Origin: Dimorphilus gyrociliatus
Lineage: Eukaryota; Animalia; Annelida
Reading direction: 5' to 3'
DNA length: 41,970 nucleotides
Assembly (NCBI GenBank): GCA_904063045.1
Contig: CAJFCJ010000101.1
Coordinates: 1-41,970 of the forward strand
Positions 568-38,093 of this stretch are shown in pieces. The translations under genes and the position numbers were made by a program. The first letter of the stretch is position 1; every line of letters starts with the position of its first letter. Below the pieces are notes generated by a model. The model saw only the letters and a list, made by a program, of their open reading frames with translations, did not search any database and was not told the DNA's origin.

Positions 568-568
568 A

Positions 569-582
569 CTTCCCCCTTCTTT
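569..582 (-). other. Polypurine tract of element 1
   Basis: Minus strand reads AAAGAAGGGGGAAG, then T, then the LTR start TGTACA. Confidence 0.92.
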
Positions 583-598
583 GTGAAGATGAGTCCCT

Positions 599-925: not shown

Positions 926-2580
926 TCATACCTTGCCTGCTTCTGTTCCAGTGAACTGATAACTTGCTTAATTTTTGAGTGCTGGTATGCAATATCCTTC
1001 TTTACCCCATGGTGGAGTAGATCAGCTAATCTGGCAATTTCAATTTTTGGTTCAGAAAGGTGATTGTGGATATGTAACTGCATGGATTTTGCAGACACAG
1101 TGTGAAATCTGCATCCTCTTTCTGAATAATACACATACGTTTTGTCTTTCATTGGTTGGTTTCTTATAGGATTTAATGGGTTGTGAGTTGTTTTGTAGAA
1201 TAACTTGTTAGACTTACACTCATTATAGGTAATCTCTTCAGGATTGACTTGCTGTAAAACATGAGTAACTGGTTCTACTTGGAAAAGCAGGTTGTTCATG
1301 GTGACAAGTAAAAATTGAGAACATTTGTTATTCTTTTTTATCATGCTTAAGTCACAAACTACTTCTGTTGAGGCTATTGGTGAACATTGTTTAATTATAG
1401 CTAATTCTCCCATCTGACTACTGTGCATTCCCAACTCATTTGTTAACACTGTGGTCAATTGAGGATCCAAATTTGCTAGTAATGCCATCATTCTGCTTCT
1501 TTGAACAAATTGATTGCAGAGAAGACTTGACAGCTGTTGGGTAAACTTTTTTAAATTCTTAAAATTTGAATCAATACCATGTAGTAAGGTAGATGTTTGG
1601 GCAGCTTCTCTCATTTCCAATGGGAATTTGTGGTATGGGTTTTTACTTATCTTATGTTTCAGTTTTGCTTCCTTCTTCATCTGCTTTTTAGCCATTCTCA
1701 TGTGTAGAGTAAAATAAATTCCTTCATAGGTAATCTTAAATTCTCTGGCTGGTGGTCCTTTATACCATATGCCCAATGTTGGTAATACCTTCTTTTTGAT
1801 TCTTTTCTCACTGTATACATATTTTGAAATCGTGACAGATTGTCTTGTTGCCCTTGTCCAATTGACTGCTTGCAGCATTTCTTGGATATAATAGTTATCC
1901 AGCTCCCAGTAAGATGGACTAATGGGTTGTTGTAGATGATATATCACAACTTCCTTGAGTGTGCCTTTATTTCTCATTAGTTTATACTTTGTGTTTGTTT
2001 CTCTGTACCATTGGTTAAGACTTGGTAAGGGGTTGTTTCGCTTGTATAGTATAATTTGTTCTTTAACTTTATTGGGATAGTTTAATAGTCGTTTTTCTTC
2101 ATTTTTGCCAATCTTCTGATATTGTAGCAAATTGTATAGGTGTTCCTTGCTTGTTTCCTGTATTAAACTCTGTTCCTCCAGTGGTACTAGTACTTTTGTT
2201 CCAGGACCACCAATTCCATCAATAAACTTATCTTGATAAGGGATGTCCAGAATAGAATACCCTGGACAAGAATAGTGACCAGCAAATTTGATACAACTAA
2301 TTCTGTTGCTAATTTTTATCCATGGTGATTGTTGCCCAAGTGTGTAATTATTCTTGAGGTTTCTAAAGACAATAATTGCCTCTTCTGTCTCACAATAGGA
2401 CTGCCCTGGTAAACAATCTTCCAGGTAGTCCAGATTAGTTGTAATTTTCATATTAGGAGGTTGCCAATATGCTTTGCCAAACTGGATAATTGTGGTGTAT
2501 TCCAGCACCTTGGTCGTTGTTGGCCATGTGTAGGCAGCAGGAAACTGATCTTGGTGGATCCAAGTGTTTCTTTTCACCAT
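844..2580 (-). CDS. env: Env ectodomain of element 1 (class III / gB-like fusion protein), in frame with the upstream ORF across one TGA at 2602-2604
   Basis: Clearly homologous to element 2 env. Contains LLCNQF..MMALLANLDPQ..GELAIIKQCSPI, resembling the gB domain III helix and domain IV entry. The 21 nt between the stop and the ATG keep the frame. Confidence 0.8.
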   Translation of the reverse strand: MVKRNTWIHQDQFPAAYTWPTTTKVLEYTTIIQFGKAYWQPPNMKITTNLDYLEDCLPGQSYCETEEAIIVFRNLKNNYTLGQQSPWIKISNRISCIKFAGHYSCPGYSILDIPYQDKFIDGIGGPGTKVLVPLEEQSLIQETSKEHLYNLLQYQKIGKNEEKRLLNYPNKVKEQIILYKRNNPLPSLNQWYRETNTKYKLMRNKGTLKEVVIYHLQQPISPSYWELDNYYIQEMLQAVNWTRATRQSVTISKYVYSEKRIKKKVLPTLGIWYKGPPAREFKITYEGIYFTLHMRMAKKQMKKEAKLKHKISKNPYHKFPLEMREAAQTSTLLHGIDSNFKNLKKFTQQLSSLLCNQFVQRSRMMALLANLDPQLTTVLTNELGMHSSQMGELAIIKQCSPIASTEVVCDLSMIKKNNKCSQFLLVTMNNLLFQVEPVTHVLQQVNPEEITYNECKSNKLFYKTTHNPLNPIRNQPMKDKTYVYYSERGCRFHTVSAKSMQLHIHNHLSEPKIEIARLADLLHHGVKKDIAYQHSKIKQVISSLEQKQARYDNMSLLQRKMALYPIYLELKSFSIVVL

Positions 2581-2601
2581 TAAAGGTTTTCCTTGAAAAG
2601 A

Positions 2602-5424
2602 TCATTTGTCTTTTATCATCTGTCTGCATTGATCATGAGTTACTTTGATAACTGAGTTAACAATCCTCCTCTTCTTTGCTCCAAAGAAATAGTAAGTGTA
2701 AAAATTAGTTCTTAGATACACTTGACATTTTACTGCTCTTGTTTCAATTTCTTCCAAGTTCAATTCATAGATATCAGCTGTAATTGTCTTGGTTTCTTGT
2801 GATTCTATATTACAAGTTGGCTCATCTGCTAGATCAAATGCCTGGCTTGGTAGTTGGTTAGAACAAAAGTATAACGGTGGTTTAAATGTTAAGGTAATGT
2901 TTGCACTTGTAACATGGGCACCTTGGTAGGATGGTTTTGGGACTGTTATTGAGTGGATGCAGCCACAGATCACCATTACAGTCATCACTAGTGGAAGCCA
3001 CAACATCTGTTTCATGTTAGCTCTTCCTGTGTTGGCTATAGTTGAATGGTTGAAAATTTTGTGTTGTTGTTCCACTCTGATAGTTATTCCATCTTCTAAC
3101 TCTATATATTGTGGTTCCACTTCTTGTTGGGAATCTAATTGTTCAGAGATGATTTTAGTCTCATCTAAAAATATGACTGACTCATTGTCTGTGTCACTTG
3201 TATTTTCTTTCTCATCTTGGGATGAATCTACCACTATGAGGGACTCATTATCTGAATGGGTTATGTCAATAATTTCACCTTCAATAATTATTGACTCATT
3301 ATCCGAATGGGTTATATCAATAATTTCACTTTCAATAATTATTGACTCATCGTCTGAACTAGATATTTCATCTTCTCTATCAGAGATAATGTTTGCCTCT
3401 GAATCTGTATTTTGATCCAGTTCATTATTTGTTTCTGTGTCATCACTTTCAGATGAGCTTGAAGGTTCATTGAGACTGTAATTACTGTCTGTTTTGAAAG
3501 TATTGCTTGTGTCATAACCAGTATCAGAATTAGTAACTTCCATCTCTGAGTCATCACTATCTGAACTTTCTGATGAAGAGTCATGCTGTCCCATCATGGC
3601 TATAGTGACTTTGTTTAGTTGAGGTTGCCTTATTCTTTCAGCCAGGTTCCCTTTCCTTCTATCAAATTTGAGAGAACACTGTTTAGCTTCAAAATTGAGG
3701 TTTGCTCCCACAGTTTGTAGGAAATCACAACCAAGTATTATTGCTATGTCTAGATTTTCCATAACTATAAATTCTTGTTCCATACTTTCTCCAGCAAATT
3801 GGATATTCAGCTTTACGCTTCCTTTTTGCTTTAAAGCTTTCCCATCAGCTGAAGTTATAATTGGTAAGCCAATTGTTTCTTTATCCATAATTGTAACATC
3901 CATTAACTTGATTTCTTTTTCAGTAATAAAGGATCTCAATGCTCCTGTGTCACACAAGGCGATGACTTCTTGGCCTTTTTGATTCTTCAAACGGAATTGG
4001 AAGTCATTTCTTCCTTCTACCTGAGAAAGATATTGGAGGTGTGTTATTTCCTTCTCCACAAGGTGAAAGATTGTTGTTGCTTCTTTCCCTGTTTCCAACT
4101 TATTAGATTCATTGGCTAGTCTTAATCTGCTACCATGTACCAACTTGCATGTATTATCATCCATTTGTATTTCATATATCCACTTTTGATGATTGACTTT
4201 TGTTATTCGGTATGGGCCTAACCATTTTAAAGAAGGGATTTTTGTTATTGCAATTCTTGCAGCATCATTTCTTAAGAATACTTCATCATCAACCTCAAAA
4301 TATTTTGGAAGATTGAGATTTCTATTCTTTCTTTCCCTATATTGTTCTTTTGCCATGATGGATTTACAGAAGGCTGTAGCTCTTAACTGTACTAATTGCT
4401 GCTGGTGATTGAATACAAATAGTACATTTGTTTCAGGAGAGGTAGTATGCATTGTTACATCAATCAGTGTTCTTGTGCTGGTGCCAAAAAGAAGTTCCTG
4501 GGGTGGTAGTCTTGTACTTCCTACAGGTGATTGATTCAAAAATGCTTGAATCAAGGGTAGGTTTGCAACCCAGTTATGCTGATTTTCTTCCACCACTAAT
4601 TTATTGATTTCCTTCCTCACTTCTCTATTTCTTCGTTCAACTAGTCCATTGCTCTGGCTTCTATAAGCTGTTGTTTGGATTTTCTCAATACCTAATACCT
4701 TCATAAACTCTTTAAAAGCTTTACCAACAAAGTTTCTTCCTTGATCTGTCAACATTTGTTTTGGAATTCCAAAAATGGGAAAAAATCTGTTGAAAAGAAG
4801 GTTTGCAATTTCTTTACTGGTTTGCTGTTTGAGTGCATATAAAACTGTGTATCTACTGAAATGATCCACTATCACAAGTATGAATCTGTATGACTTAACC
4901 ATGGGTAAGGGTCCCATTATATCCATGGCTACCAACTCCATTGGTGATGCAGGGTGAAAGGTTTCTACCAAAGGGTATACTCTACTCCTACCATTCATTT
5001 GTTCACACAAAGTGCAATCCTTTATTGAATTCTCAATCATAATCTTTAATTTTGGGTGCCAAAAGGTCTTTGTAATTATTTGTAATGTCATTCTGGGTCC
5101 ATGGTGATTGTGAATTTTATTTTTATGGAATTTAGGGAGCAGAGTTAGCATCAAATGGTCAGGTAAAACCAGAATGTTTCTTTCTTCAAGGATAATCCAG
5201 ATCATTTCCTTGTGAACAAACATCTCCATTATGAAAGGTGTAAAAGTTCCAAAATAAGGAATAGGTAGCTGACCATCCAATGTTAAATATTCTTTAATTG
5301 ATTTTAAATTCACATCTTTTTCTTGCTCTGACTGTAAGTCAACAGAAGACAAATCAATTTTCTCTTCACTGTTATCACTGGTAGCTACAAAAGTTAACTC
5401 TGGTGTATGTTCATACTGTTCCAT
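2602..5424 (-). CDS. pol: Integrase, second aspartic protease, acidic repeat block, signal peptide and env N-terminus in one frame
   Basis: HHCC (H..HH..CTLC), DDE (MDIMGP, TDQG, VERRN), GPY motif, ALCDTGA..IILGCDFL protease, D/E/S-rich region, hydrophobic MKQMLWLPLVMTVMVICGCIHS. Confidence 0.93.
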   Translation of the reverse strand: MEQYEHTPELTFVATSDNSEEKIDLSSVDLQSEQEKDVNLKSIKEYLTLDGQLPIPYFGTFTPFIMEMFVHKEMIWIILEERNILVLPDHLMLTLLPKFHKNKIHNHHGPRMTLQIITKTFWHPKLKIMIENSIKDCTLCEQMNGRSRVYPLVETFHPASPMELVAMDIMGPLPMVKSYRFILVIVDHFSRYTVLYALKQQTSKEIANLLFNRFFPIFGIPKQMLTDQGRNFVGKAFKEFMKVLGIEKIQTTAYRSQSNGLVERRNREVRKEINKLVVEENQHNWVANLPLIQAFLNQSPVGSTRLPPQELLFGTSTRTLIDVTMHTTSPETNVLFVFNHQQQLVQLRATAFCKSIMAKEQYRERKNRNLNLPKYFEVDDEVFLRNDAARIAITKIPSLKWLGPYRITKVNHQKWIYEIQMDDNTCKLVHGSRLRLANESNKLETGKEATTIFHLVEKEITHLQYLSQVEGRNDFQFRLKNQKGQEVIALCDTGALRSFITEKEIKLMDVTIMDKETIGLPIITSADGKALKQKGSVKLNIQFAGESMEQEFIVMENLDIAIILGCDFLQTVGANLNFEAKQCSLKFDRRKGNLAERIRQPQLNKVTIAMMGQHDSSSESSDSDDSEMEVTNSDTGYDTSNTFKTDSNYSLNEPSSSSESDDTETNNELDQNTDSEANIISDREDEISSSDDESIIIESEIIDITHSDNESIIIEGEIIDITHSDNESLIVVDSSQDEKENTSDTDNESVIFLDETKIISEQLDSQQEVEPQYIELEDGITIRVEQQHKIFNHSTIANTGRANMKQMLWLPLVMTVMVICGCIHSITVPKPSYQGAHVTSANITLTFKPPLYFCSNQLPSQAFDLADEPTCNIESQETKTITADIYELNLEEIETRAVKCQVYLRTNFYTYYFFGAKKRRIVNSVIKVTHDQCRQMIKDK
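3242..3350 (-). repeat. 51-bp tandem repeat (2+ copies) encoding ESIIIE(S/G)EIIDITHSDN
   Basis: Unit gactcattatc(t/c)gaatggg..aataattatt starts at 3242 and 3293, with a partial copy at 3344. Confidence 0.95.
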
Positions 5425-5522
5425 TTTAACTGAAATAGAGGGAGAATTCTCCTTTTTGATCTTTCCATGAATTAGCTCTTCAAATGTTACTTTCCTTGGG
5501 GGTGTATATTCTTCTAATCTTG

Positions 5523-7946
5523 TTAATGCATCTGCTCTATTTTTTGTCCTGTCACATAGTTAATTGTAAATTTTAAATCCATTAAAGCCATGACCCATTT
5601 TGCTGTGCTGACATTCAATTTGTTTTGCTTAAATGTTTGTACTAGACTCTGATGGTCAGTATATAAAAAGAATGGCTTGTCTTGAAGGTAATGTAAAAAT
5701 TTCTTTACAACCCAGTAAACACCAAATGCTTCCTTTTGATAGGCTGCATATTTCATTTGATTATTGTTGAATTGTTTTGAAGCGTAGGCAATGGGTTTCA
5801 TTGTTTTCTTCCCATTCTCATCTACATAAACTTGTTCAAGAACTCCTCCTACAGCTACATTCGATGCATCTGTTGTTAAGTGAAAATCTTTAGCAAAATC
5901 AGGTAGTTGTAATACAGGAGGGTTAACTACTGCATCTCTCAACTTGAAAAATGATTGCTTGGCTTCCTCAGTCCATTGCAATTTATCCTTTTTCCCATGT
6001 AGTTTCATTAACATATACAGAGGTTTAGCTACTCTTGCAAAATCTTGTATAAATTTTCTGTAATAGCCACAAAATGCAACAAAGCTTAGTAGTGAATTTG
6101 CAAACACTGGTGGCTGTAAATTATATAATTTATCTGTCTTGGACTTATCTGTTTCAATCCCCTTTTCTGATACAATGTGTCCCAAGAATTGAACTTGTTC
6201 TTTCAAAAACACACATTTACTTAGTTTAATCTTAAAATTGTACTTTTGAATCTGTTGAAGAATGGTCTCCAATGCTTCCCAATGTTGGTCCAGCGACTTG
6301 GTAAATATTATTATGTCATCAAGGTAGTTTAGGCACAAATGCTTTACATCCTTTAGCACAAATGAATTCATTACATAACTAAAATGAGGAGGGGCATTGG
6401 TTAATCCAAAAGGCATCTTAATAAATTCAAACAAGCCAAAAGGTGTAATAAATGCTGTTTTAGACCTATCTTCTTTCTTGATGTTAATGTGGTGGTATGC
6501 ACTTGTCAAATCCATTGTAGAAAAGAATTTATTTCCTCCTCCCAAATGGTCAAAAAGATCATCTTGATTTGGCAGTGGATACTTGTTTTTAACTGTCATT
6601 TTGTTTAGTTTTCTATAATCTACACACATTCGTAGACTACCTTCCTTCTTTCTTACGAAAACAATTGGTGAAGCCCAATTGCTCTTGCTTGGTTGAATAA
6701 CTTTGCTTTTTACCAATTCAGCTATCTGTTGCTTACATTCTTCTTGTTTTTGAGGAGGCATTCTATATGGCCTTTGTCTATATGGTGTTGAACCTGGTTC
6801 AAGAGTTATTTCCAAGGGTGGTACCTCTGGATTGCCAATATCAAATCTGTCTTCTGCAATAGTTTCTTTATATTTTGCCAGAATTTGGGTAACTTTGTTC
6901 TTCATCTTGGGATTTTCTTGTTCAATTGTTGTCTGAAGGGTATGTATTTGACTCTCATTCTTTTTCATAATAAGAGGAACTGGGTAAAATCCTTTGAAAG
7001 ATAAGTGTTGTGTTCCAACAGGGTAATTCTTTTCTGTACCTGGCTGGAGTATAATCTGTCTCTTGCCAAAGTCAAGGGTAGCTCCATTTTGTTGTAGAAA
7101 GTCACACCCAATAATACATTGTTGTGTAATGATTTTGTTGATCAGAAAGCGTTGTTTAATAATCTTTCTATTAAAATAAAGTCTGAGAATGATTTCTCCA
7201 CATATCTCAATGCTATTTCCTGAAGCATCTCTAGCATTTTTCACAGTTTGTTCTGGGAAGGATGCTTTTCCTTGAACTTGTCTTAATACCTTTTTTGAAA
7301 TGAAAGATCTGTCACTACCAGAGTCTATCAAGGCATCAAACTTAAAACCAGTATTAGTTTCAAATTGTCCAATAAATGTTGAGGCATTTCGCTCAGATTG
7401 TTTGCTTTGTAACAGCTGACAAGTGGATTCGTCACTATCTGAAAAACAGAGAATATCTTGAACTTCGTCGTTTTCTGACATGCTTTCATTGTCTAATGTT
7501 TCTAATTTTTGTAGCTTAGGTTCCTCTTTCAGTATCGTCTTTGCTGGTTGATTTTTCTTATAATACCTATTTGTTGTAGTTGGTGCATACTTTTGGACTT
7601 TTTGGCTTGAAAACTTTTCTTTAGTAGCATTTTTGTTGTCAGGTACATGCTTTCTATTCCAGAAATTTGGGGTTTCTGTAGAAGCATCTTTTCTGATTAC
7701 CTGGGTCTTTTTGGTCTCTTTTCTTTGTTGAGTTTCCAATTTTGACACCATTGTGATCGGTTTTCTTTGAGTTAGTTTTAATGAAGTTTCTGCTTGCTTA
7801 GCAGCCTCATATAGTTCTGCCAATGTTTGACATTTAGGATGTAAGGTGTACACTAAATGTAGAATATCCTGTTGTAATCCTCTTTGTAAAACTTCCATCA
7901 GTTTTATTTCTTTCATAGTTGCAAGCAATTGTGGTTCCATTGGGCT
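5523..7946 (-). CDS. pol: Gag C-terminus, protease 1, reverse transcriptase and RNase H of element 1
   Basis: LQRGL..TLAELYEAAKQAE gag helix, DALIDSGS..IIGCDFL, WASP, YLDDII, TTDAS, YTDH. One extra A in the run near 5543 would restore NRADAL and fuse this ORF to the integrase frame. Confidence 0.95.
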   Translation of the reverse strand, partial: SPMEPQLLATMKEIKLMEVLQRGLQQDILHLVYTLHPKCQTLAELYEAAKQAETSLKLTQRKPITMVSKLETQQRKETKKTQVIRKDASTETPNFWNRKHVPDNKNATKEKFSSQKVQKYAPTTTNRYYKKNQPAKTILKEEPKLQKLETLDNESMSENDEVQDILCFSDSDESTCQLLQSKQSERNASTFIGQFETNTGFKFDALIDSGSDRSFISKKVLRQVQGKASFPEQTVKNARDASGNSIEICGEIILRLYFNRKIIKQRFLINKIITQQCIIGCDFLQQNGATLDFGKRQIILQPGTEKNYPVGTQHLSFKGFYPVPLIMKKNESQIHTLQTTIEQENPKMKNKVTQILAKYKETIAEDRFDIGNPEVPPLEITLEPGSTPYRQRPYRMPPQKQEECKQQIAELVKSKVIQPSKSNWASPIVFVRKKEGSLRMCVDYRKLNKMTVKNKYPLPNQDDLFDHLGGGNKFFSTMDLTSAYHHINIKKEDRSKTAFITPFGLFEFIKMPFGLTNAPPHFSYVMNSFVLKDVKHLCLNYLDDIIIFTKSLDQHWEALETILQQIQKYNFKIKLSKCVFLKEQVQFLGHIVSEKGIETDKSKTDKLYNLQPPVFANSLLSFVAFCGYYRKFIQDFARVAKPLYMLMKLHGKKDKLQWTEEAKQSFFKLRDAVVNPPVLQLPDFAKDFHLTTDASNVAVGGVLEQVYVDENGKKTMKPIAYASKQFNNNQMKYAAYQKEAFGVYWVVKKFLHYLQDKPFFLYTDHQSLVQTFKQNKLNVSTAKWVMALMDLKFTINYVTGQKIEQMH

Positions 7947-8416
7947 TTCCATATTTCCTCCACAGTAGGCTCTCCATCCAGAGCCAACACCAAATCCTTT
8001 GCAGGACCAGTTAAATAATCTAAAAGATTTGCTTTCACAACATCTTCTCCTATCCAACCATAAGCATAACATGCCTGATTAAAGTCTTCTTTGAATTTTG
8101 AACACTCCTTGCTTCCATCATACAACTTGAGAATAGTTCTTTGAGGGCGGTCCCAAGCAGCCCTTAATGCTTGAATTACTGTTGTGATATCAACATTTGG
8201 GTTCTGTGCTGGGTGATGTGTTCCATCTCCATGATCTGTTGGAATTGTGATTCGATTTCTTTTCATTTCACTCACCAATCTGTCATAGTCTTCAATTAGT
8301 CTTTGTTGCCTTTCTGACATTCCTGCTGGCTGAATTGTAATTGTTGGAGTTGCTGGGGTTGAAGGGTTAGAGTCTGTAACTGCCCCAGTGGCGTTTCCAT
8401 TTCCTTCTTCTGCCAT
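7913..8416 (-). CDS. gag: Gag N-terminus of element 1 (frame break near 7945)
   Basis: First ATG after the PBS (MAEEG). YDGS..FKEDFNQACYAYGW..LLDYLTGPA resembles a retrotransposon capsid domain. No CCHC knuckle seen. Confidence 0.8.
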   Translation of the reverse strand: MAEEGNGNATGAVTDSNPSTPATPTITIQPAGMSERQQRLIEDYDRLVSEMKRNRITIPTDHGDGTHHPAQNPNVDITTVIQALRAAWDRPQRTILKLYDGSKECSKFKEDFNQACYAYGWIGEDVVKANLLDYLTGPAKDLVLALDGEPTVEEIWKAQWNHNCLQL

Positions 8417-8454
8417 ATTTACTTTCTCAAAACTTTTGAATAAACCAAAAGAAT

Positions 8455-8472
8455 ATCCTGTCGACTGCGCCA
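8455..8472 (-). other. Primer binding site, tRNA-Ser type
   Basis: TGGCGCAGTCGACAGGAT, 4 nt after the LTR end. Close to the tRNA-Ser PBS of Drosophila 17.6/297-type elements (TGGCGCAGTCGGTAGGAT). Confidence 0.9.
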
Positions 8473-8476
8473 AATT

Positions 8477-9111
8477 TGTACTGCTCTTGCTGGCAAAATC
8501 TATGCGTTTGCAAGTTATAACAATACTGGTTCTACTCGAACCTTTAAACAAATGTTTAAATTAAAACGGTTTATTCGCAATAATAATACTTAAGCAAGTA
8601 ACAATATGAGAGTTCGATAGCAGAGTAGATAGTTTGTAAAAGCAGGTTGCCAAATTACCAAACTGTCTTCTAATGTTGAGGAGTAGATGGATGGTTCCAG
8701 TGGAGGTTGTTTCCAGATGATTTTCCCAGGTCCTTGGGTCCAGATGGAAGCTGCATGCCAAATGAGAATAATGAGAATTTATATACTTTGAGGTTTGTCT
8801 CTGACATCCAATCATCACTTTACAGTTGCCGAAATGTGTAGTTCATATTTATCTTTAGTAACAGGATGTTACAAGGTTCAACATTTAGGAAGGTTAATTG
8901 AATTATAACTTGGCCACACCCTAGGCAAGTTAATTAAATTATAACTTGGCCAAACCTTTGTTGGTAATTAAAGATGAGCCTTCAAGCTGACTAATCAGAC
9001 TTATGTTTGGCCAATGTTATAGCATTTTCTTGCGTAGGTTTTAAGATGTACATGTATATGTTGCATAAAATAATAGAGTTCAAGCATGTAAAATATAACC
9101 AAAGTTGTACA
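8477..9111 (-). repeat. 5' LTR of element 1 (635 bp)
   Basis: Termini TGTAC..GTACA, TATA-like AGTATATAAA, AATAAA near the 3' end, and a duplicated aattataacttggcca motif in U3. Confidence 0.97.
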
Positions 9112-24300: not shown

Positions 24301-25458
24301 GAAAATTGAAAAATTTTAATATTTTGTCAAGAATTTCTTATCTAACTTCTCTCTATGCTATTCAAATGAATGTTGTTTAAAACGTAAAAATCACAGTGTT
24401 TGTATGTTTATAGATGAAATTAAAAGATGTTAAATCATCGAAATTCAAAAATTAATCATTTTGAGACTTTCTGGTTCAGAAAGTATAACCCTAAGCTTTA
24501 TAGACTTTGCTTTTTGTTCAAATCAATTTTGTAAGAGTATTTTTAGGCTATTAAACTGTTCATTGAAACAGTTAAATTCTGAATTCGTTTGATGAATTTC
24601 TCTTGAAAAAATAAATAGTGAAAAAATTCTTTGCTAAATTTTTAGGAATTGAATGATTTTTAATTTTATCTCAATATACTTAAACAGTTTCTTCATAACA
24701 TTTCAAACAATATTTATTTTCAAATAAAGTATAAAATGTTATTAGGAGTGTGTTTATTACATTTAAAAAGATATATATTTGAATAGTTTAAACAAAGTCA
24801 GATATGAATAGGCATCTATTATTGTTGAAATTTGGACAATCTTTGCAAACACTTAAATCAATTGAAAACTAATAGCTGTGTATATCTTAAACGTGATATA
24901 TAGTTCATAATATATATATACTATTAGATTGTGCAATTGTTCATTTGGTGAATTTGAAAAGTTTAATTGCTTAAAATGCTCTTACAATATCTATATGGAT
25001 GAAAAGCAAAATCTATAAGGCTTTGGGTAAGGGTTATATTTCTTTAACCAGATAGTCTCAGAAATGAATAATGTTGATATTTTTTTAAGAATGAATTCTC
25101 TGGGTTTCTTTTCTTGTAATCGAAAAAATATTGTTTTAAACATAATAAACACTCTCCTTGTGTAAGTATAAACGAAATTAAAAGTTGTTCCATAACTTAA
25201 CTAGAAAATGTTATCAAAGGAAAATTTTATTTATTTTCCTTTTTTTCTGGCATTCAAATAAATATTGTTATAAACGTAATAGACACACTCCTGGAGTATA
25301 TATATGGATAAAAAAAACGTTGTTCAATCCTTCAAAATGAAAAAAGTTTTTTTTTTTACCTTTATATACTGCAGGAGTATGTTTTGAACAACATTTAATA
25401 TCACCTATATACATGACACTGGTGTGTTTATTATGTTTAAAAAATCATTTATTCGAAT
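21330..25458. repeat. Degenerate ~290-300-bp repeat array with copies in both orientations
   Basis: Marker aataaacacactcctggagtatatatgg on + near 21487, 21774, 22130, 22430, 22735 and 25280. Reverse complement near 23410, 23770, 23880, 24750 and 25420. Confidence 0.85.
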
Positions 25459-26271
25459 TGTACACTACATTCGTCAGCTATATTCTACAATAGAGAAGTA
25501 GTATTGAACCAGTATTGTACTATGCAGATAGCACTGATAAAGATAAGCAGTAGTGACCTAGTTTCGCATAGGGCAGTGCATACACATTATGCAGTAATAA
25601 AACCTATTGAATTATATAAAGAATATTTGCTATTTGCAACCTAGCATTAATATTACAATTTATTAATCCATAAATTTATGATTTTGAACTAAAACTAGTT
25701 CAATTAATTATCAATTATGCTTAAATTCTAAGTTTAGATTATATTCACTATTCAACAGTATTGTATACACAATACTGTTCTTTTTAACATGCATTAATCA
25801 GATATACTTCCTCCTTATATGCTGATGCTAAATTTACTAACTCAATCAATTGAATATCATTATTAAGGTAGAATATAAAGACAGTCAAATATACAATCTA
25901 CATGTTTTCTTGATTGTTGGACTTGTGCTACTAAAATTGTTACATCTTATGCAACTCTCCAACCTTCGAAATTCAACTATTATTTAGAAGAGGAAAACAA
26001 TAAAAACATGACCATATTTAGAACTTTTCTTTGTCTTCAAATGTTACTTTTGTTTTTGTGAACATGGAAATTTGTCAACTATCAACCCTTAAAAGAGTAT
26101 ATAAACCCTACGAAATTAACAGTTGATAGTTCAGTTTTCTAACTGTCAGCTAGTTGTTTAAACTAGCTTGTTTAGAACTAGAAGCTCATTTTACTCAATA
26201 CATATTCTTTGGACGAAATACTGGTGTTTTCTTAATCAATTTCTACCAAAATTGCCTTTGTTAGACTATTT
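25459..26271 (+). repeat. Truncated 5' LTR of element 2 (last 121 bp, PBS and gag start deleted)
   Basis: Matches 33062-33871, then jumps into mid-gag sequence. No PBS follows. Confidence 0.95.
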
Positions 26272-26694
26272 AAAGGAAAAATTGTTAATCATGTGGAAAA
26301 AGATGGAAAGATTAACTCAGTTAATCAGTATATTAAATTGGCAAAAAGAGCAGAAATATTTTTTGATAATGCAAGAAAAGAAAGCGAAAATGAATTCAAA
26401 CAGTACAAAAGGAGATTTGACAACAATCAGAGTAACTCAAATCAAAATGAACATACATTTAAACCTTTTTCTCAAAATAGATTTCAACAACAAAGAAATG
26501 GAAATGCAGGAAATAATGAAAAAGGCAGCTTTAACAGACTAATACATGTTGGACCTGATGAACCTAATGAAACTGAAATTTCTAAAGGAAGAATGGCAAT
26601 ATTTAATCTCAAAGAAGAGAAAATCGCACATTTTAAGTGTACTTCTTTGGTAAAAGGCAGAAAAGATTTTGCAATTTCGAATGAAAAATCATAA
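26272..26694 (+). pseudogene. gag: Gag C-terminal remnant of element 2
   Basis: IVNHVEKDGKINSVNQYIKLAKRAE parallels element 1 ILHLVYTLHPKCQTLAELYEAAKQAE. It is followed by an N/Q-rich stretch with no CCHC knuckle. Confidence 0.65.
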
Positions 26695-27778
26695 TGGAAG
26701 AGAGGTTATTGCTTTATGTGATTCAGGAGCACTTTTGTCATTTATTACAGAAAAAGAAATCAGGTTAATGGATTCTAAATTCATCAAGAAAGAAACTACT
26801 GGCTTACCAATCATCACTTCAGCAGAGGGAAATGCTTTAAAGACAAAAGGAAAAACAAAACTGAATATTCAATTTAATGGAAGAATTATGGAACAAGAAT
26901 TCTTTATTATGGAAAAACTAGATATGGCTATAATACTTGGTTGTGATTTCTTAGAAAATGCTGGAGCTCTTATTGATTTTGCAACAAAACAAGTTTCTCT
27001 TCCATTCTTTATCAGAAAAGGACAACCAGTTAGAAAGTTTTTGCAATATAACGAAAATCACCAAACAAAATTTGGAAAACAAGGCAGTGTAAAAAAAGTA
27101 ACTGTTGGAATGATGGGACAGTATTTTGAAGATTCTGACACTCCATCTGAAGTTTTTGATACTCCATCTGAAGTTTCAGATAGTGTGGACTCAGAAATGG
27201 AAGTTACTGATCCAGATACTGGCTATGATACAAGCAACACTCATGGTTCAAGCATAGTTTATGAGGGATTCAATGGTTTTGATTCAAATAGCAATTATGG
27301 CACAGATGAAAGTTCCAGTACTTCTGAAAATTATGATACAGAAACAAGTATTGAATCAGATCACAGCCCAGACTCAGATTTGGATATAATCAATGGTACA
27401 AGCTCATCTGAAGATGAAATTAGTGATTCAACTGATTCTGATCATGGTTCAATGATTGTTATAGACTCATCTGAGGAAGAGCTTGATAACATAACTGAGC
27501 CTGATAATGATTCAATGATTGTTATAGACTCATCTGAAGAAGAGACCAGTAACACAATTGAGTCTGACAATGATTCCATAACGGTTATAGACTCATCTGA
27601 TGAAGAGACTGGAAATATACCTAAGTCTGACAATGACTCAGTTATTCTCATAAATTCCTCTGAAGAAGAAACTGAAGACTTGGCTATGGAAATGGAAATG
27701 AAACCACAATATAGAATTAGAAGATGGAATAACTATCAAAGTGGAAAAAGAACAAAAGAAAAATCCAGTAACACCTGA
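26669..27778 (+). CDS. pol: Aspartic protease plus acidic repeat block of element 2
   Basis: ALCDSGA..IILGCDFL. Frame breaks near 26670 and 27712 are both read through in frame in the element 1 homologue (DFQFR; PQYIELEDGITI). Confidence 0.9.
   Translation: MQFRMKNHNGREVIALCDSGALLSFITEKEIRLMDSKFIKKETTGLPIITSAEGNALKTKGKTKLNIQFNGRIMEQEFFIMEKLDMAIILGCDFLENAGALIDFATKQVSLPFFIRKGQPVRKFLQYNENHQTKFGKQGSVKKVTVGMMGQYFEDSDTPSEVFDTPSEVSDSVDSEMEVTDPDTGYDTSNTHGSSIVYEGFNGFDSNSNYGTDESSSTSENYDTETSIESDHSPDSDLDIINGTSSSEDEISDSTDSDHGSMIVIDSSEEELDNITEPDNDSMIVIDSSEEETSNTIESDNDSITVIDSSDEETGNIPKSDNDSVILINSSEEETEDLAMEMEMKPQYRIRRWNNYQSGKRTKEKSSNT
27449..27672 (+). repeat. 63-bp tandem repeat (3.5 copies) encoding (M/I/V)(I/T)(V/L)I(D/N)SS(E/D)EE units
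   Basis: Units start at 27449, 27512, 27575 and 27638. A separate 21-bp duplication (DTPSEV) lies at 27137-27176. Confidence 0.95.
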
Positions 27779-30700
27779 AATAGAAGAATTACAGTTGGAA
27801 AGTATTGAATTTGAACATTTGTCTAATCAAAATGTACACAATATTAATTCAAATACACTAGAAATTGACAATTATTTACATGTGTCCAAAAATAATCTTG
27901 ACAAGAACAGAGAAGAATTAAAAGAAATGATGAAGAATTATGAAGATATTATTGCTACAAATCAGAATGACATTGGTTCACCAGATGTTCCACCAATGGC
28001 AATTGAATTATTGGAAGATATAAAGCCTTTCAAACAAAGACCATACAGATTGCCACCCAACAAACAGCAGGAATGCAGGGATCAATTAAATGGATTATTG
28101 GAAAATGGTCTAATTAGAGCAAGCAAAAGCCAATGGGCTTCACCCATTGTTTTTGTGAAAAAGAAAGAAGGAACATTAAGAATGTGTGTGGATTACAGAA
28201 AACTTAACAAGCAATCAAAAAAGAATTGTTATCCAATTCCACATCAGGAAGATTTATTTGATAAGCTTGGAGGAGGCCACAAATATTTTTCTATATTGGA
28301 TTTAACAAGTGCATTTCATCATATTCCAATTAAAGAAGAAGATAAGGAGAAAACTGCTTTTATTACACCATTTGGTTTATTTGAATTCAACCGCATGCCA
28401 TTTGGTTTGGCTAATGCACCTTCACACTTCAGCTATATCATGGCAAATTTTGTTATTAATGGATTGGAAAACTTCTGCATTAATTATATGGATGATATTA
28501 TAGTTTTTACCAAAACATTGGAAGAACACTTTGTAGCTCTACAGAAACTTATGGAAAGAATCAAGGAAAAAGACTTCAGAATTAAACTGAGCAAATGTGC
28601 ATTCTTACAAGAATCAGTTCAATTCCTTGGTCATAGAATTACACAGAATGGTATTGAAACTGATCCTGAAAAGATTCAGAAAATAAAAGATGCCAAATTA
28701 CCTATGTTTGCAAATACTCTGTTGAGTTTTGTGGCATTTTGTGGTTATTATAGAAGATTTGTTAAAGATTTTGCAAAAATCACAAAACCTTTGAGAGAAT
28801 TATTAAAAGTACACCAAAAGACAGAAAAACTGAAATGGACAAAAAAAGCAGAGGAAGCTTATGAAACACTAAGGAATGCAATGACAGAGCCCCCAATCCT
28901 TCAACTGCCAGACTTTACTAAATCATTCTATTTAACAACAGATGCTTCTAATTATGCAGTTGGTGCAGTTCTAGAACAAGAATGGGAAGAAGATGGAAAG
29001 AAAATAAGAAAACCAATTTCTTTTGCTTCCAAGCTCCTAATCAATACACAACTAAGATATGCAGCTTATCAAAAAGAGGCTTTTGCAGTATATTGGGCAG
29101 TACAAAAATTCTCCCATTATCTACAGTATAAGAAATTTTTTCTCTACACTGATCACCAAAATTTGGTACAAACATTTGTACAAAACAAACTGAATACAAG
29201 TACTGTTAAAAGGGTGATGGCACTTATGGATATGGATTTTGAAATAATATACATACCAGGAAGAACTAATAGAGCAGACTGGATATCAAGAATTGGTGAA
29301 ACTGATGAAGTAATTGATTTTCGTAATTTACTTAAGGAAAGATTAAATGAAGAAAAACAAAATGGCAATACAGTTCCCCAATTAGCAGAAAGAAAGGATA
29401 TGCTTAAATGCTTTTATATTGATACAGAGGACTTAGAAGAATTAGATGATTGTTTAGATGACAATCTAGACAATGATTATGATGAAGACATAACTGAAAT
29501 CCAAGCCCAGATTATGAAACTAAAAATCACACCAGTTGAAATAAACTTCTATAGAGAACAAGTATTAGATACTCCACTAATGAAAGTTGTAGACAAATTG
29601 GAAGGAGAAAACATTGATAATGGGTCTTTGAATGAATATGGAAACTTTATTGAATCTATGTTTGTAAAAGAAGACCTTGAATGGTATCTAAATGGCTGTC
29701 AACCACTACTTGTAATTCCACTATCAACTCTAACAAACTTACTTGGACAAATTCATCAACATCAACTATTTGAGCACTATGGTGTAGACATAACAATTCA
29801 CACTTTGGAGCAAGCTTTCTGGCACCCAAAGCTAAAGAAAACAATTAAAGATCACATAAAGAGTTGTGAATTTTGTGAGCAATTAAGAGCACCAGGCAAC
29901 AAACATCTGTTGGTTGAAACACCTCACCCAACTTTACCAATGCAAAGAATAGCTATGGACATAATGGGACCTCTGACTGGACATGATTCTTACAAGTATA
30001 TACTTGTCATTATAGACCACATGTCCAGATTTACCAACATATTCCCTCTAAAAACTCAAACAGCTGAGGAAATTTCTAAACATTTGTTTTTCAACTATTT
30101 CCCAATATTTGGTATCCCAGAAGAAATTCTCACAGATCAAGGAAGGAATTTTCTTGGGGAAATCTTTACAGAAATGGTGACATCAATGGGAATACGAAAA
30201 ATTAAAACAACAGCATTCCATAGCCAAAGTAATGGAATGGTAGAAAGAAAGAATTTGGAAATTTGTAGAGCACTACATAAACATGTAGTTATGGAACAAT
30301 TAACAGATTGGACAAGACAGTTACCATTAATTCAGACATGTTTAAATCAAATTCCAGTTGGAAGCACTGGCAAAACCCCACATGAAATATTATTTGGATT
30401 GAAGAATAGAAATGTTTTAGACCTGTTAATGGAAGTTCCAAGATTAGAACCAACAACAAAATTCTTATTTGATAGAAAACATGAACTTGAAGAAATTAGA
30501 GCAACAGCACTTTGCAAATCTGTTCTAAAAAAGAAGGAATATAGAGATAGAGTTAATAAAGCTATTACAAGAAAACCTCCAACTTACAAAATTGGTGATT
30601 GGGTACACAAAAGAAATGAAAACATTGGTCAAGGAATGAACAGAATAAATACAAGCAAATGGAGTGGACCATATCTTGTAACTGCTACAGATACTACAAA

Positions 30701-32303
30701 ATGTTTGTATAAATTACAAATATTGGCAGATAAAAGAAAATTCTACCATGCTAGTAGACTAAGACTAACTAACAAACAAGCTATAACAGTTAACACAGTG
30801 ACAGTAAGGAAACACCAAACAAATGGTGTAATGCTGCCTATCAGAGGATCAATAATTTATACACTGTTAGCAATATGCTGTTTAAACTTGGTCCAAGCAA
30901 ATGTATCCATAACAAAAGCAAACATAACTGTAAGAATGCTACCATCAGTACAGTTTTGTCAAGGACAACAAGTACACCAATCATTTGATTTAGCAGATGA
31001 ACCAGTATGTACCTTTGAAACTAAACAAATGATCAAAATTGTAGCTAACATCTATGAAATTAAAGCTGACAATTTGGCAATTCAAGCTGTCAAGTGTTTA
31101 GTGAAAAGAAGAATCAATTTCTACACTCATTACTTTTTTGGTGCAAAGAAACACAGAATTGAAAAACAAACACTTGCCTTAAGTGAAAAACAATGCAGAA
31201 CAATGCTATACACACACAAAACCTTAAATGGACAAAACCTAATTGAAAAAGGCAAACTTCTTATGTATAATGAAAACAAAGGACCAAATTACAAATGGCC
31301 AAGAACCACAGTGGTGGAAGAATTTACAACAATCCTTCAAATTGGCAAGGCTTATTGGAATCCAAGTCAAGATAAAATAACCACAAATTTGGAATATTTA
31401 GAAGACTGTTCTATTAAACAAAAATTTTGTAGAACTTTGGATTCAATCATTATATTTAATCCAGAAAAAGGCCAAAGTCTTCTAGGCCATGTTTCACCAT
31501 GGAAAATAGTTTCCCATAATGTGGAATGTCTAAAACTTGGAGGATATTTTTCCTGCCCCAACTATGCAATAATGGATTTACCTTACCAAGACAGATATAT
31601 CAAAGGATATGGTGGTCCTGGTACCAGAGTATTGGTACCCCAGAAAGAATATGACTTACTTAGAACTGATCTTACAAATTCTAATTATGCTGACAATAAA
31701 ATAATAGAGGATACAAAATACAAGATCATTTCAAATAAAGAAGTTAATAGATTGGAGAAATATATTGGAAAGAAATCATCACTAAGAAAGGCCAATGTCA
31801 CAGAAATACAAGATATTTTAACATATAATGATTGGTATAGAGATGGTGACAAAACCTACCATATGCTGATAAAAAATCATGCAACACCATTAGTGAGGAC
31901 TTGGTTTGTCAAAGAAATTATTTCTCCAGACATCTGGGATATTCACAACAAATACATACTAAAAATGCTGAAAACAACAAAGCTAAAACCTGCCAGACTA
32001 GTAAGATCACAAGATTTTGAATTGGACAAAAAACCAGTTACTTTCAACCCACTCCCAAACATGAACATTTGGTATCAAAGCCCAAAAGATACACAATTTC
32101 AAATTCATACAGAAAATGGCAAATATACACTTTTACAAAGAAAACCAATAAATCACAAATGGAAGAGGAAACAATTAGAAAACATAGAGATTCCAGAATC
32201 ACACCAAATAAATATAAAAGATGCTATAAGAACAGCTGCACTACTAAACAATATTGACAAAAATTTTCAAAATTTACAAACAGTTTTTAAACAAGTTTCA
32301 TAA
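27741..32303 (+). CDS. pol: RT, RNase H, integrase, signal peptide and env ectodomain of element 2 in one frame
   Basis: RMCVDYRKLN, YMDDII, TTDAS, H..H..CEFC, MDIMGP/TDQG/VERKN, then MLPIRGSIIYTLLAICCLNLVQA and Cys-containing env. Confidence 0.95.
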   Translation: MEKEQKKNPVTPEIEELQLESIEFEHLSNQNVHNINSNTLEIDNYLHVSKNNLDKNREELKEMMKNYEDIIATNQNDIGSPDVPPMAIELLEDIKPFKQRPYRLPPNKQQECRDQLNGLLENGLIRASKSQWASPIVFVKKKEGTLRMCVDYRKLNKQSKKNCYPIPHQEDLFDKLGGGHKYFSILDLTSAFHHIPIKEEDKEKTAFITPFGLFEFNRMPFGLANAPSHFSYIMANFVINGLENFCINYMDDIIVFTKTLEEHFVALQKLMERIKEKDFRIKLSKCAFLQESVQFLGHRITQNGIETDPEKIQKIKDAKLPMFANTLLSFVAFCGYYRRFVKDFAKITKPLRELLKVHQKTEKLKWTKKAEEAYETLRNAMTEPPILQLPDFTKSFYLTTDASNYAVGAVLEQEWEEDGKKIRKPISFASKLLINTQLRYAAYQKEAFAVYWAVQKFSHYLQYKKFFLYTDHQNLVQTFVQNKLNTSTVKRVMALMDMDFEIIYIPGRTNRADWISRIGETDEVIDFRNLLKERLNEEKQNGNTVPQLAERKDMLKCFYIDTEDLEELDDCLDDNLDNDYDEDITEIQAQIMKLKITPVEINFYREQVLDTPLMKVVDKLEGENIDNGSLNEYGNFIESMFVKEDLEWYLNGCQPLLVIPLSTLTNLLGQIHQHQLFEHYGVDITIHTLEQAFWHPKLKKTIKDHIKSCEFCEQLRAPGNKHLLVETPHPTLPMQRIAMDIMGPLTGHDSYKYILVIIDHMSRFTNIFPLKTQTAEEISKHLFFNYFPIFGIPEEILTDQGRNFLGEIFTEMVTSMGIRKIKTTAFHSQSNGMVERKNLEICRALHKHVVMEQLTDWTRQLPLIQTCLNQIPVGSTGKTPHEILFGLKNRNVLDLLMEVPRLEPTTKFLFDRKHELEEIRATALCKSVLKKKEYRDRVNKAITRKPPTYKIGDWVHKRNENIGQGMNRINTSKWSGPYLVTATDTTKCLYKLQILADKRKFYHASRLRLTNKQAITVNTVTVRKHQTNGVMLPIRGSIIYTLLAICCLNLVQANVSITKANITVRMLPSVQFCQGQQVHQSFDLADEPVCTFETKQMIKIVANIYEIKADNLAIQAVKCLVKRRINFYTHYFFGAKKHRIEKQTLALSEKQCRTMLYTHKTLNGQNLIEKGKLLMYNENKGPNYKWPRTTVVEEFTTILQIGKAYWNPSQDKITTNLEYLEDCSIKQKFCRTLDSIIIFNPEKGQSLLGHVSPWKIVSHNVECLKLGGYFSCPNYAIMDLPYQDRYIKGYGGPGTRVLVPQKEYDLLRTDLTNSNYADNKIIEDTKYKIISNKEVNRLEKYIGKKSSLRKANVTEIQDILTYNDWYRDGDKTYHMLIKNHATPLVRTWFVKEIISPDIWDIHNKYILKMLKTTKLKPARLVRSQDFELDKKPVTFNPLPNMNIWYQSPKDTQFQIHTENGKYTLLQRKPINHKWKRKQLENIEIPESHQINIKDAIRTAALLNNIDKNFQNLQTVFKQVS

Positions 32304-32873
32304 CTTTTATGCAAAGAATTTATCATGAGAAACAAGATGATAGCCCTACTTACACCACTATCACCTCAACTACCAACAATACTTGGATATGGTACATGTG
32401 ACCAAACTCAGCATCTCTTCAAGATCAAGAAAAATCCTTTGGATGCAGAACAAAATCAATATGCCATACATTCTGGCAAGAAGACATTTATCTATTATAC
32501 AAGGAAAGGATGCAGGTTCCAAACAGCAGCAGCACAATCAATCAGAATGAAAATCAACAGTCAAATTGAAGAACCAAAACTAGAAGTTGTCAGACTCACA
32601 GAATTATTACAACTAGGTATAAAAGAAGATGTGGGCAAGAAACATTATCAGATACAACAAGTTTTGGAATACATACAGGATACTTTGACTAAGCATAGAG
32701 AGCATATTAACTTTGCAAATGATTTAGGAATTGATGCAGCCTTGTCACCAACACAACATCTATTTTCTTCATGGATAAGAAAACCTTTCAAAATACTAAT
32801 AGACACACTTCTGCCAATTATACTCTTGATTGGAATTGGATTCTTCATCTACTTTATTGGAAGAAAAAACTGA
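32304..32873 (+). CDS. env: Env C-terminus with TM helix, same frame as the upstream ORF after an in-frame TAA
   Basis: LLCKEFIMRNKMIALL aligns with element 1 LLCNQFVQRSRMMALL. TM helix LLPIILLIGIGFFIYFIG followed by RKN. Confidence 0.85.
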   Translation, partial: LLCKEFIMRNKMIALLTPLSPQLPTILGYGTCDQTQHLFKIKKNPLDAEQNQYAIHSGKKTFIYYTRKGCRFQTAAAQSIRMKINSQIEEPKLEVVRLTELLQLGIKEDVGKKHYQIQQVLEYIQDTLTKHREHINFANDLGIDAALSPTQHLFSSWIRKPFKILIDTLLPIILLIGIGFFIYFIGRKN

Positions 32874-33045
32874 AAAGAGTTCAATTTACCAGACTGTCTA
32901 AACTACTGACAAAAACAAAAAGATTACCTTCAGCTCCAACAGCCTGAATCAGAAGAAATAGAACTGCAAAATTATCCTATGTTCAGAAAAAGTGGTGATA
33001 ACATAATTGTCACAAGTCCTAGACCTTTCGTGGAAGCAAGGTCTT

Positions 33046-33057
33046 AAAGGAGTGGGA
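33046..33057 (+). other. Polypurine tract of element 2
   Basis: AAAGGAGTGGGA, 4 nt before the 3' LTR. Confidence 0.85.
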
Positions 33058-33061
33058 TGTT

Positions 33062-33992
33062 TGTACACATACATTCGTCAGCTATATTCTACAATAGAGA
33101 AGTAGTATTGAAACCAGCATTTACTATGCAGATAGCACTGATAAATAAGCAGTAGTGACCTAGTTTCGCATAGGCAGTGCATACACATTATGCAGTAATA
33201 AAAACCTATTGAATTATATAAAGAATATTTGCTATTTGCAACCTAGCAATAATATTACAATTTATTAATCCATAAATTTATGATTTCGAACTAAAACTAG
33301 TTCAATTAATTATCAATTATGCTTAAATTCTAAGTTTAGATTATATTCACTATTCAACAGTATTGTATACACAATACTTTCTTTTTAACATGCATTAATC
33401 AGATATACTCCTCCTTATATGCTGATGCTAAATTTACTAACTCAATCAATTGAATATCATTATTAAGGTAGAATATAAAAACGGTCAAATATACAATCTA
33501 CATGTTTTCTTGATTGTTGGACTTGTGCTACTAAAATTGTTACATCTTATGCAACTCTCCAACCTTCGAAATTCAACTATTATTTAGAAGAGGAAAACAA
33601 TAAAAACATGACCATATTTACAACTTTTCTTTGTCTTCAAATGTTACTTTTGTTTTTGTGAACATTGAAATTTGTGAACTATCAACCCTTAAAAGAGTAT
33701 ATAAACCCTATGAAATTAACAGTTGATAGTTCAGTTTTCTAAATATCAGCTAGTTGTGTAAACTAGCTTGTTTAGAACTAGAAGCTCATTTTACTCAATA
33801 CATATTCTTTGGACGAAATACTGGTGTTTTGTTAATCAATTTCTACCGAAATTGCCTTTGTTAGACTATTTGTGGATGAACTTTAAAGGTTCTATTTGAA
33901 CCAGTACTTTGGCAAGTTGGTAAATGATTGGAAAGGACGATTACAGTTGTGATGAACCAGAAATTCCTACAATTACAATACAACAAAGTACA
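33062..33992 (+). repeat. 3' LTR of element 2 (931 bp)
   Basis: TGTAC..GTACA termini, GAGTATATAAACCC TATA-like motif, followed by the TSD. Confidence 0.97.
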
Positions 33993-38089: not shown

Positions 38090-38093
38090 TATT

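What the first reader, a model, noticed from the sequence alone, without database searches (positions are those of the whole stretch)
27215..27232. Conserved DTGYDT motif resembling a beta-TrCP phosphodegron inside the otherwise diverged acidic block
Seen: DSEMEVT(N/D)(S/P)DTGYDTSNT is conserved between element 1 (DTGYDT at 3508-3525) and element 2 (27215-27232), while the flanking low-complexity sequence is poorly conserved. Established: SCF-beta-TrCP binds D-pS-G-x-x-pS (Emi1 DSGYSS), and HIV-1 Vpu uses DSGNES to hijack it. Inference: a degron next to tandem SIMs could form an adaptor that sends SUMOylated host proteins to degradation, functionally like a SUMO-targeted ligase. It could alternatively just set the turnover of the protease precursor. 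The first phosphosite is Thr rather than Ser, which weakens the match.
Basis: inference. Interest (0 to 1): 0.7.

Follow-up and report, generated by a model that had tools for sequence, protein, structure and literature searches.

The report
Degron-like motif in worm retrotransposon
Two envelope-carrying retrotransposons, likely from a tiny marine worm, keep a nine-residue stretch unchanged inside a variable acidic region; it resembles the tag that the cell's beta-TrCP ubiquitin ligase grips and would, if binding were shown, let a jumping gene engage the host's protein-degradation machinery.

Summary
DTGYDT is at both stated places. It lies in a predicted-disordered acidic block that follows an aspartic protease in two env-bearing Ty3/gypsy elements, most likely the Dingle family of the annelid Dimorphilus gyrociliatus. 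The unchanged unit is DTGYDTSNT. Between the two window copies alone it is not clearly beyond chance (longest-run P 0.14; best-window P 0.022), because the protease-plus-acidic module is shared more recently than RT or integrase. Two further subfamilies seen in public contigs change 0 of 9 motif codons but 5 of 10 flanking codons (P 0.022). So the motif is probably under modest selection. It is the block's only D-[ST]-G-hydrophobic-x-[ST] match, and the closest degron I found is Bora DSGYNT. Against it: both phosphosites are Thr, I found no D-pT-G degron in print, no lysine lies 8-15 residues upstream, and binding could not be tested. Best reading (about 0.4): a beta-TrCP-binding degron mimic acting as decoy or adaptor, not a self-destruct timer. 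The SUMO-targeting adaptor idea stays possible (about 0.1) but has no direct support.

The parts
27215..27241 (+). Invariant run DTGYDTSNT in element 2; core DTGYDT 27215-27232 is the degron-like motif
   Evidence: no replacement in two further subfamilies
3499..3525 (-). Same run in element 1 (core 3508-3525)
   Evidence: dN 0, dS 0.75 against element 2
27188..27214 (+). Acidic upstream flank DSEMEVTDP: similar but not invariant
   Evidence: 2 replacements versus element 1; 4 replacements in further subfamilies
27110..27712 (+). Element 2 acidic Ser/Thr/Asp/Glu-rich block, 201 aa, predicted disordered, 2 lysines
3106..3597 (-). Element 1 acidic block, 164 aa, predicted disordered, 3 lysines
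27403..27669 (+). SIM-like tandem repeats of element 2 (63-nt period, 4.2 copies; hydrophobic core followed by DSSEEE-type acidic run)
   Evidence: SUMO binding inferred, not tested
3160..3350 (-). SIM-like repeats of element 1 (51-nt period, 2.1 copies at 3242-3350, plus two further hydrophobic cores)
26669..26992 (+). Retropepsin-type protease of element 2, directly upstream of the acidic block, between gag and RT
   Evidence: Pfam RVP_2, RVP; active-site motif at 26717-26734
3679..4002 (-). Second protease of element 1, after integrase and before the acidic block and env; 69% identical to the element 2 protease, 30% to element 1's own first protease
25458..33871 (+). Element 2: LTR - gag - PR - acidic block - RT - RNase H - IN - env - LTR. 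LTRs 25458-26271 and 33061-33871 are 97% alike. The frame is broken in this copy near 26670 and 27710, and there is a stop at the end of the 27702-32303 frame
1..9111 (-). Element 1: LTR (8539-9111) - gag - PR1 - RT - RNase H / IN - PR2 - acidic block - signal-peptide-like stretch (2950-3015) - env - LTR (1-567, at the window edge). LTRs are 98.6% alike. Frame breaks near 8000 and 5540, and a stop near 2602

Best explanation
DTGYDTSNT is the best-kept stretch of a predicted-disordered acidic segment carried by these retrotransposons, and it likely works as a phospho-dependent docking site for the host F-box protein beta-TrCP (a degron mimic). Shown: position, reading frame, lack of replacements in four lineages, and the match to D-[ST]-G-hydrophobic-x-[ST]. 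Inferred steps: (1) a host acid-directed kinase phosphorylates both threonines; the first sits in a T-x-x-D context, the CK2 pattern as I recall it. (2) The doubly phosphorylated motif binds the beta-TrCP propeller as Bora DSGYNT does. (3) Because the segment is nearly lysine-free around the motif, it would hold beta-TrCP without being efficiently ubiquitylated itself, so it acts as a decoy or adaptor like the viral mimics Vpu, LMP1, A49 and NSP1, rather than as a timer. (4) The element's protease may release the segment at the conserved hydrophobic junctions at each end (untested). What it would recruit beta-TrCP to is unknown; the neighbouring SIM-like repeats make SUMOylated proteins one candidate.
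For: Longest identical run of the acidic block, with dN 0 and dS 0.75, the latter like the rest of the module (0.80-0.93), so the constraint is on protein and not DNA. Independent check on two subfamilies not used to define the motif: 0 of 9 motif codons versus 5 of 10 flank codons replaced, P 0.022; both motif differences are silent. It is the only D[ST]G-phi-x-[ST] in either block; shuffle P 0.008 and 0.025; 1 of 119 other pol proteins holds the pattern outside a protease-type active site. A random 9-mer of this composition holds it with P 0.0002-0.0004. Bora's DSGYNT, 4 of 6 identical, is a validated degron with Thr at the second site (PMC2287288, passages). beta-TrCP accepts non-consensus degrons (PMC13097077, parts 1-2 of 3). 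Several unrelated viruses use such mimics (PMC4324316, passages). Charge-hydropathy places both blocks on the disordered side. An abundant contig with an in-frame 168-nt skip beside the motif still keeps D-T-G-Y-x-T.
Against: The first phosphosite is Thr. All five peptides solved in PMC13097077 start D-pS, and my searches found no D-pT-G degron. The strict DSG pattern is absent from both blocks. On the two window copies the run is not significant (P 0.14), and for the 6-codon core the independent test gives P 0.11. The extra subfamilies are few, related to each other, selected for at least 80% likeness, and one rests on a single contig of depth 3.5. Loose degron patterns are common in such blocks (61% and 95% of shuffles). 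The degron model does not explain why S-N-T after the core is also unchanged. A relative with 69% identical RT (P0025) runs from protease to RT with only a short acidic stretch and no strict motif, so the segment is dispensable for the wider family. No relatives with the segment were found outside this organism's data, so deep conservation could not be measured.
Confidence: 0.4

Rival explanations
1. No special function: the motif is a remnant of recent common descent. The protease-plus-acidic module moved between element lineages recently, and some 9-residue run stays identical by chance in a 52%-identical block; the degron likeness arises because the block is rich in D, S and T.
For: Run permutation P 0.14; module dS 0.8-0.9 versus saturated RT and IN; loose degron patterns occur in 61-95% of shuffles; 6-codon test P 0.11.
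Against: Best-window P 0.022; independent 9-codon test P 0.022 with only silent changes in the motif, and the Gly codon is seen in three synonymous forms; strict pattern is rare.
Confidence: 0.27
2. A real phospho-motif for another host reader, for example an FHA domain (pThr-x-x-Asp; recalled, not from a call), which would explain why Thr rather than Ser is kept.
For: T-G-Y-D fits T-x-x-D in both elements; all three threonines of the run are unchanged.
Against: T-x-x-[DE] is common here (7 and 8 matches per block; 13-15% of random 9-mers) and the other matches are not specially kept. It does not explain the invariant Gly-Tyr. The in-frame skip variant would lose the +3 Asp. The Keap1-type pattern (recalled) fails at its last residue.
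Confidence: 0.15
3. A true degron that limits the level of the element's own precursor (Gag-Pol in element 2, IN-PR2-env in element 1): self-restraint rather than hijack.
For: Same motif evidence as the best explanation; the precursors are lysine-rich elsewhere.
Against: Nearest upstream Lys is 40 (element 2) and 29 (element 1) residues away, against 8-15 or 9-14 in cellular substrates (PMC10487276; PMC4324316). The motif moved with the SIM-like repeats into two different polyprotein positions.
Confidence: 0.1
4. A constraint from polyprotein processing or folding against the adjacent protease, not from a host partner.
For: The motif travels with the protease in both elements.
Against: It is acidic and polar, 25-36 residues into the block and at different distances from the protease in the two elements; the hydrophobic junctions at the ends of the block look more like cleavage sites (inference).
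Confidence: 0.08

Closest known systems
Bora degron 496-DSGYNT-501 (Plk1-phosphorylated, SCF-beta-TrCP; PMC2287288, passages seen)
   Same: D-x-G-Y-x-T; 4 of 6 residues identical; Thr at the second phosphosite; same spacing.
   Different: Thr instead of Ser at the first phosphosite; Bora is a cellular substrate that is itself degraded; binding here is untested.
Viral phosphodegron-like motifs: HIV-1 Vpu, EBV LMP1, vaccinia A49, rotavirus NSP1 (PMC4324316 and PMC10487276, passages seen)
   Same: A mobile-element protein with a degron-like motif; LMP1 is described as escaping degradation for lack of acceptor lysines, as this segment might.
   Different: Those motifs use Ser and have shown binding; this is an LTR retrotransposon segment inside a pol or env polyprotein, next to SIM-like repeats.
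SUMO-targeted ubiquitin ligases RNF4, Arkadia/RNF111, HSV-1 ICP0, VZV ORF61p (PMC4584293, passages seen)
   Same: A cluster of three or more SIM-like hydrophobic cores with acidic flanks.
   Different: ICP0 and ORF61p carry their own RING there (RNF4 and Arkadia too, as I recall). This segment has no Cys and no RING, so it could only work by borrowing a ligase; no such link is shown.
Dingle Ty3/gypsy elements of Dimorphilus gyrociliatus (bioRxiv 10.1101/2020.05.07.078311, passages seen)
   Same: Env-bearing Ty3/gypsy element; the closest named proteins are D. gyrociliatus gene models.
   Different: The three passages returned by my term search do not mention the acidic block or a second protease; the figure with the gene layout and the supplements were not visible to me.

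Membership tests
beta-TrCP phosphodegron (D-pS-G-phi-x-pS) | Asp, Gly, hydrophobic residue and four-residue spacing of the two phosphosites | tested here: met
   DTGYDT; only strict match in each block
beta-TrCP phosphodegron (D-pS-G-phi-x-pS) | Serine at the first phosphosite | tested here: not met
   Thr in all lineages seen; no D-pT-G example found. I recall BCL10 having a Thr there, but the paper was not held. Not filed as a canonical member.
beta-TrCP phosphodegron (D-pS-G-phi-x-pS) | Ser or Thr at the second phosphosite | tested here: met
   Thr, as in Bora T501
beta-TrCP phosphodegron (D-pS-G-phi-x-pS) | Lies in an accessible, disordered region | tested here: met
   Charge-hydropathy prediction only; the AlphaFold model was uninformative, mean pLDDT 31
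beta-TrCP phosphodegron (D-pS-G-phi-x-pS) | Motif more conserved than its flanks | tested here: inconclusive
   P 0.14 and 0.022 on two copies; P 0.022 (9 codons) and 0.11 (6 codons) on two more subfamilies
beta-TrCP phosphodegron (D-pS-G-phi-x-pS) | Acceptor lysine about 8-15 residues upstream (for substrates) | tested here: not met
   Nearest upstream Lys at -40 and -29
beta-TrCP phosphodegron (D-pS-G-phi-x-pS) | Phosphorylation in cells and phospho-dependent binding to beta-TrCP | not testable with these tools
SUMO-targeted ubiquitin ligase | Cluster of SIMs | tested here: inconclusive
   SIM-like pattern matches: 4 in element 1, 3 in element 2; tandem repeats; SUMO binding untested
SUMO-targeted ubiquitin ligase | Own RING E3 domain | tested here: not met
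   No RING family in the Pfam scan; no Cys in either block
Dingle Ty3/gypsy LTR retrotransposon | LTRs, PR-RT-RNase H-IN order, env-like region after integrase, D. gyrociliatus host | tested here: met
   best pol hit is a D. gyrociliatus gene model. The host and the env label are inferred from these hits, from position and; the env region had no Pfam match
Dingle Ty3/gypsy LTR retrotransposon | Falls in the Dingle clade of a pol phylogeny | not tested
   No named Dingle reference sequences were held

The most novel reading that the evidence does not exclude
These retrotransposons encode a mobile accessory segment that joins a beta-TrCP-recruiting phospho-motif to a SIM array and so builds a SUMO-targeted ubiquitin ligase from host parts, removing SUMO-marked silencing or restriction proteins. 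It would be a transposon counterpart of ICP0 and Vpu without a RING of its own. The segment is found in two different polyprotein positions, and its SIM-like repeats have different periods in the two lineages, which suggests separate expansions.
Probability: 0.1. Interest if true: 0.85.

Novelty: new variant of a known kind. Interest (0 to 1): 0.4.

Why it matters
Viral proteins that mimic the beta-TrCP degron are known from viruses of mammals. My searches returned no listing that describes one in an invertebrate LTR retrotransposon. A confirmed case would show a transposon-encoded handle on SCF ligases, would add a Thr/Thr variant to the beta-TrCP consensus, and, if the SIM array works with it, would give a testable model of transposon counter-defence through SUMO-directed degradation. 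As it stands it is a six- to nine-residue motif in one species with modest statistics.

Tried and rejected
Wider alignment from other species: nothing found. Protein searches gave none at E<=0.001 among 6843 candidates and none among 1 candidate. The exhaustive search gave 157 hits, of which 150 were listed; nearly all matched the protease only, one (P0071) matched the end of the acidic block, and 1 of the 150 held an unrelated strict pattern. Viral contigs and metagenome contigs gave 0 loci. No whole genome is held. No RNA holder listed. AlphaFold model: pLDDT under 50 throughout, not used and not sent to a fold search. The protein atlas did not answer. Earlier findings: none. DNA-level conservation or gene conversion as the cause: rejected, since silent differences in the motif are as frequent as in the protease (pS 0.47 versus 0.49). 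An overlapping frame as the cause: an 84-codon alternative frame covers the element 1 motif, but no ORF of 80 codons or more does so in element 2. Degenerate protease active site (D-T-G): rejected, as there is no hydrophobic strand before it and no Pfam hit there. Keap1 and SPOP patterns (recalled): no shared match; the 'DTG motif' in PMC5339396 refers to the Nrf2 DLG motif and is irrelevant. Run X6 shows almost only C>T and G>A differences, like a bisulfite library, and was left out of all counts. The uncorrected site-wise P of 0.0006 ignores the post-hoc choice of window and is not used.

Full report
What the window is. The window holds two LTR retrotransposons of the Ty3/gypsy type, with protease, RT, RNase H and integrase domains and LTR pairs 98.6% and 97% alike. 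Element 1 lies on the minus strand at 1-9111, element 2 on the plus strand at 25458-33871. The closest named proteins are Dimorphilus gyrociliatus gene models; pol proteins from other organisms align at about 30-40%. The genome paper of this annelid names an env-bearing family, Dingle (bioRxiv 10.1101/2020.05.07.078311, three passages seen). I take these elements to be Dingle by inference; no phylogeny was run, and the figure with the gene layout and the supplements were not visible, so the paper may show features I could not see. Both window copies have broken frames; contigs of other copies differ from element 2 near both of its breaks, so I read those as lesions of this copy.

The observation. 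DTGYDT is encoded at 27215-27232 (+) and 3508-3525 (-), in frame with the protease upstream. It lies in an acidic block of 201 and 164 residues that is 65% D/E/S/T/N, has no Cys, and falls on the disordered side of the charge-hydropathy boundary. The block follows a protease in both elements but at different places: between gag and RT in element 2, and after integrase, behind a second protease and before env, in element 1. That protease is 69% identical between the elements, while RT-RNase H is 62%, integrase 44%, and element 1's own first protease 30-36% identical to the other two. Silent divergence is 0.80 for the protease and 0.93 for the acidic block, but saturated for RT and integrase. 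So the module was exchanged between lineages more recently than the backbone diverged, and its presence in both elements is weaker evidence than it looks.

Is the motif more conserved than chance? The flanks are homologous, not unrelated: 52% identity over 164 aligned codons. Part of their apparent divergence is repeat turnover, as the SIM-like repeats have a 51-nt period in element 1 and a 63-nt period in element 2. DTGYDTSNT is the longest identical run, with no replacement and 3 silent differences (dS 0.75). Permuting identities over the block gives P 0.14 for a run of 9 and P 0.022 for a 16-of-18 window. For an independent test I laid contigs of 4 public runs (2 studies; the runs of one study may be the window's source) on 27140-27300. 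Two more divergent subfamilies appeared, one in all 4 runs and one in a single contig of depth 3.5. Over codons 27188-27244 they differ from the window by 5 replacements, all in the 10 flanking codons, and 2 silent changes, both in the 9 motif codons. One-sided P is 0.022 for the 9-codon run and 0.11 for the 6-codon core. These subfamilies share most changes, so they count as about one lineage, and the 80% likeness filter favours conserved stretches. A further contig in one run (depth 207) skips 168 nt in frame between the motif and a similar downstream stretch; read across, it keeps D-T-G-Y-x-T, but microhomology alone could give that. No relative with the block was found elsewhere. An unnamed relative with 69% identical RT (P0025) goes from protease to RT with only a short acidic stretch and no strict motif. 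Verdict: probably under selection at the protein level, on modest evidence from one organism.

Is it a beta-TrCP degron? It is the only D-[ST]-G-hydrophobic-x-[ST] in either block; shuffles give such a match in 0.8% and 2.5% of cases, and 1 of 119 other pol proteins has one outside a protease-type active site. A random 9-mer of this composition holds it with P 0.0002-0.0004, so the coincidence of best-conserved stretch and degron pattern carries weight, though I did not correct for the many other motif classes one could have tried. Looser patterns are worthless here (61% and 95% of shuffles). The closest validated degron I found is Bora DSGYNT, where both S497 and T501 are needed (PMC2287288, passages). 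beta-TrCP tolerates variation at the second site, but all five peptides solved in PMC13097077 begin D-pS (parts 1-2 of 3 read). Acidic residues can replace the first Ser (DDG in CDC25 and CReP; PMC4474599, passages). I found no D-pT-G degron (searches; term look-ups). I recall a Thr at this position in BCL10; the review supplement lists BCL10 as a substrate without the motif and the paper was not held, so this stays recalled. Cellular substrates have a lysine 8-15 residues upstream (PMC10487276; 9-14 in PMC4324316); here the nearest is 40 and 29 residues away and the blocks hold only 2 and 3 lysines. This fits a decoy or adaptor better than a timer, but acidic blocks are lysine-poor anyway.

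Mechanism. Most likely (0.4) a host kinase phosphorylates the threonines and the motif binds beta-TrCP, as the viral mimics Vpu, LMP1, A49 and NSP1 do; every step from phosphorylation on is inferred. Rivals: chance on recent ancestry (0.27), another phospho-reader such as an FHA domain (0.15, recalled pattern, common in these blocks), a self-limiting degron (0.1), a processing constraint (0.08). The SUMO-adaptor idea needs two unproven functions to work together. The SIM-like cores are there (4 and 3 pattern matches; repeats), and known SUMO-targeted ligases use such clusters (PMC4584293, passages), but this segment has no RING. I put it at 0.1.

Novelty. Searches (listings only, apart from the papers named above) showed no report of a degron mimic or a SIM-plus-degron segment in an invertebrate LTR retrotransposon. 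The motif fails one defining feature of the canonical degron (first Ser), so I do not file it as a member; it may work like one. Rating: new variant of a known kind, interest 0.4.

Noticed in passing
window 3679-4002 (-) and 7023-7349 (-): Element 1 carries two proteases: its own before RT, and a second, element 2-like one after integrase that heads the acidic block and env. Loose ends of contigs in three runs match this element 1 layout, so it is not confined to this copy. Possibly more interesting than the motif itself.
   Followed up: partly
window 2950-3117 (-): In element 1 the acidic block is followed closely by a signal-peptide-like hydrophobic stretch of env, so unless cleaved it would be membrane-tethered on the cytosolic side; in element 2 it is fused to RT instead.
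   Followed up: no
window 27224-27393: One contig of run X5 (depth 207, against 122 for the window-like form) skips 168 nt in frame between two similar stretches of the acidic block.
   Followed up: partly
window 37374-39028 (-) and 39548-39794: Truncated inverted copy of element 2 (587 nt of integrase/env 100% identical, plus LTR) and a more diverged LTR fragment.
   Followed up: no
window 9001-11181 (-) and 13812-15338 (-): Two long frames (726 and 508 codons) with no Pfam match; the first has internal repeats and lies right beside the element 1 LTR.
   Followed up: no
window 21300-25460 and 34170-35430: Dense family of 60-300 nt AT-rich repeats in both orientations, spacing about 280-360 nt; satellite- or MITE-like.
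   Followed up: no
P0001 (D. gyrociliatus gene model DgyrCDS14462): Gene model that starts with a fragment of this protease type (60% identity) joined to about 350 unrelated residues; probably an annotation chimera.
   Followed up: no
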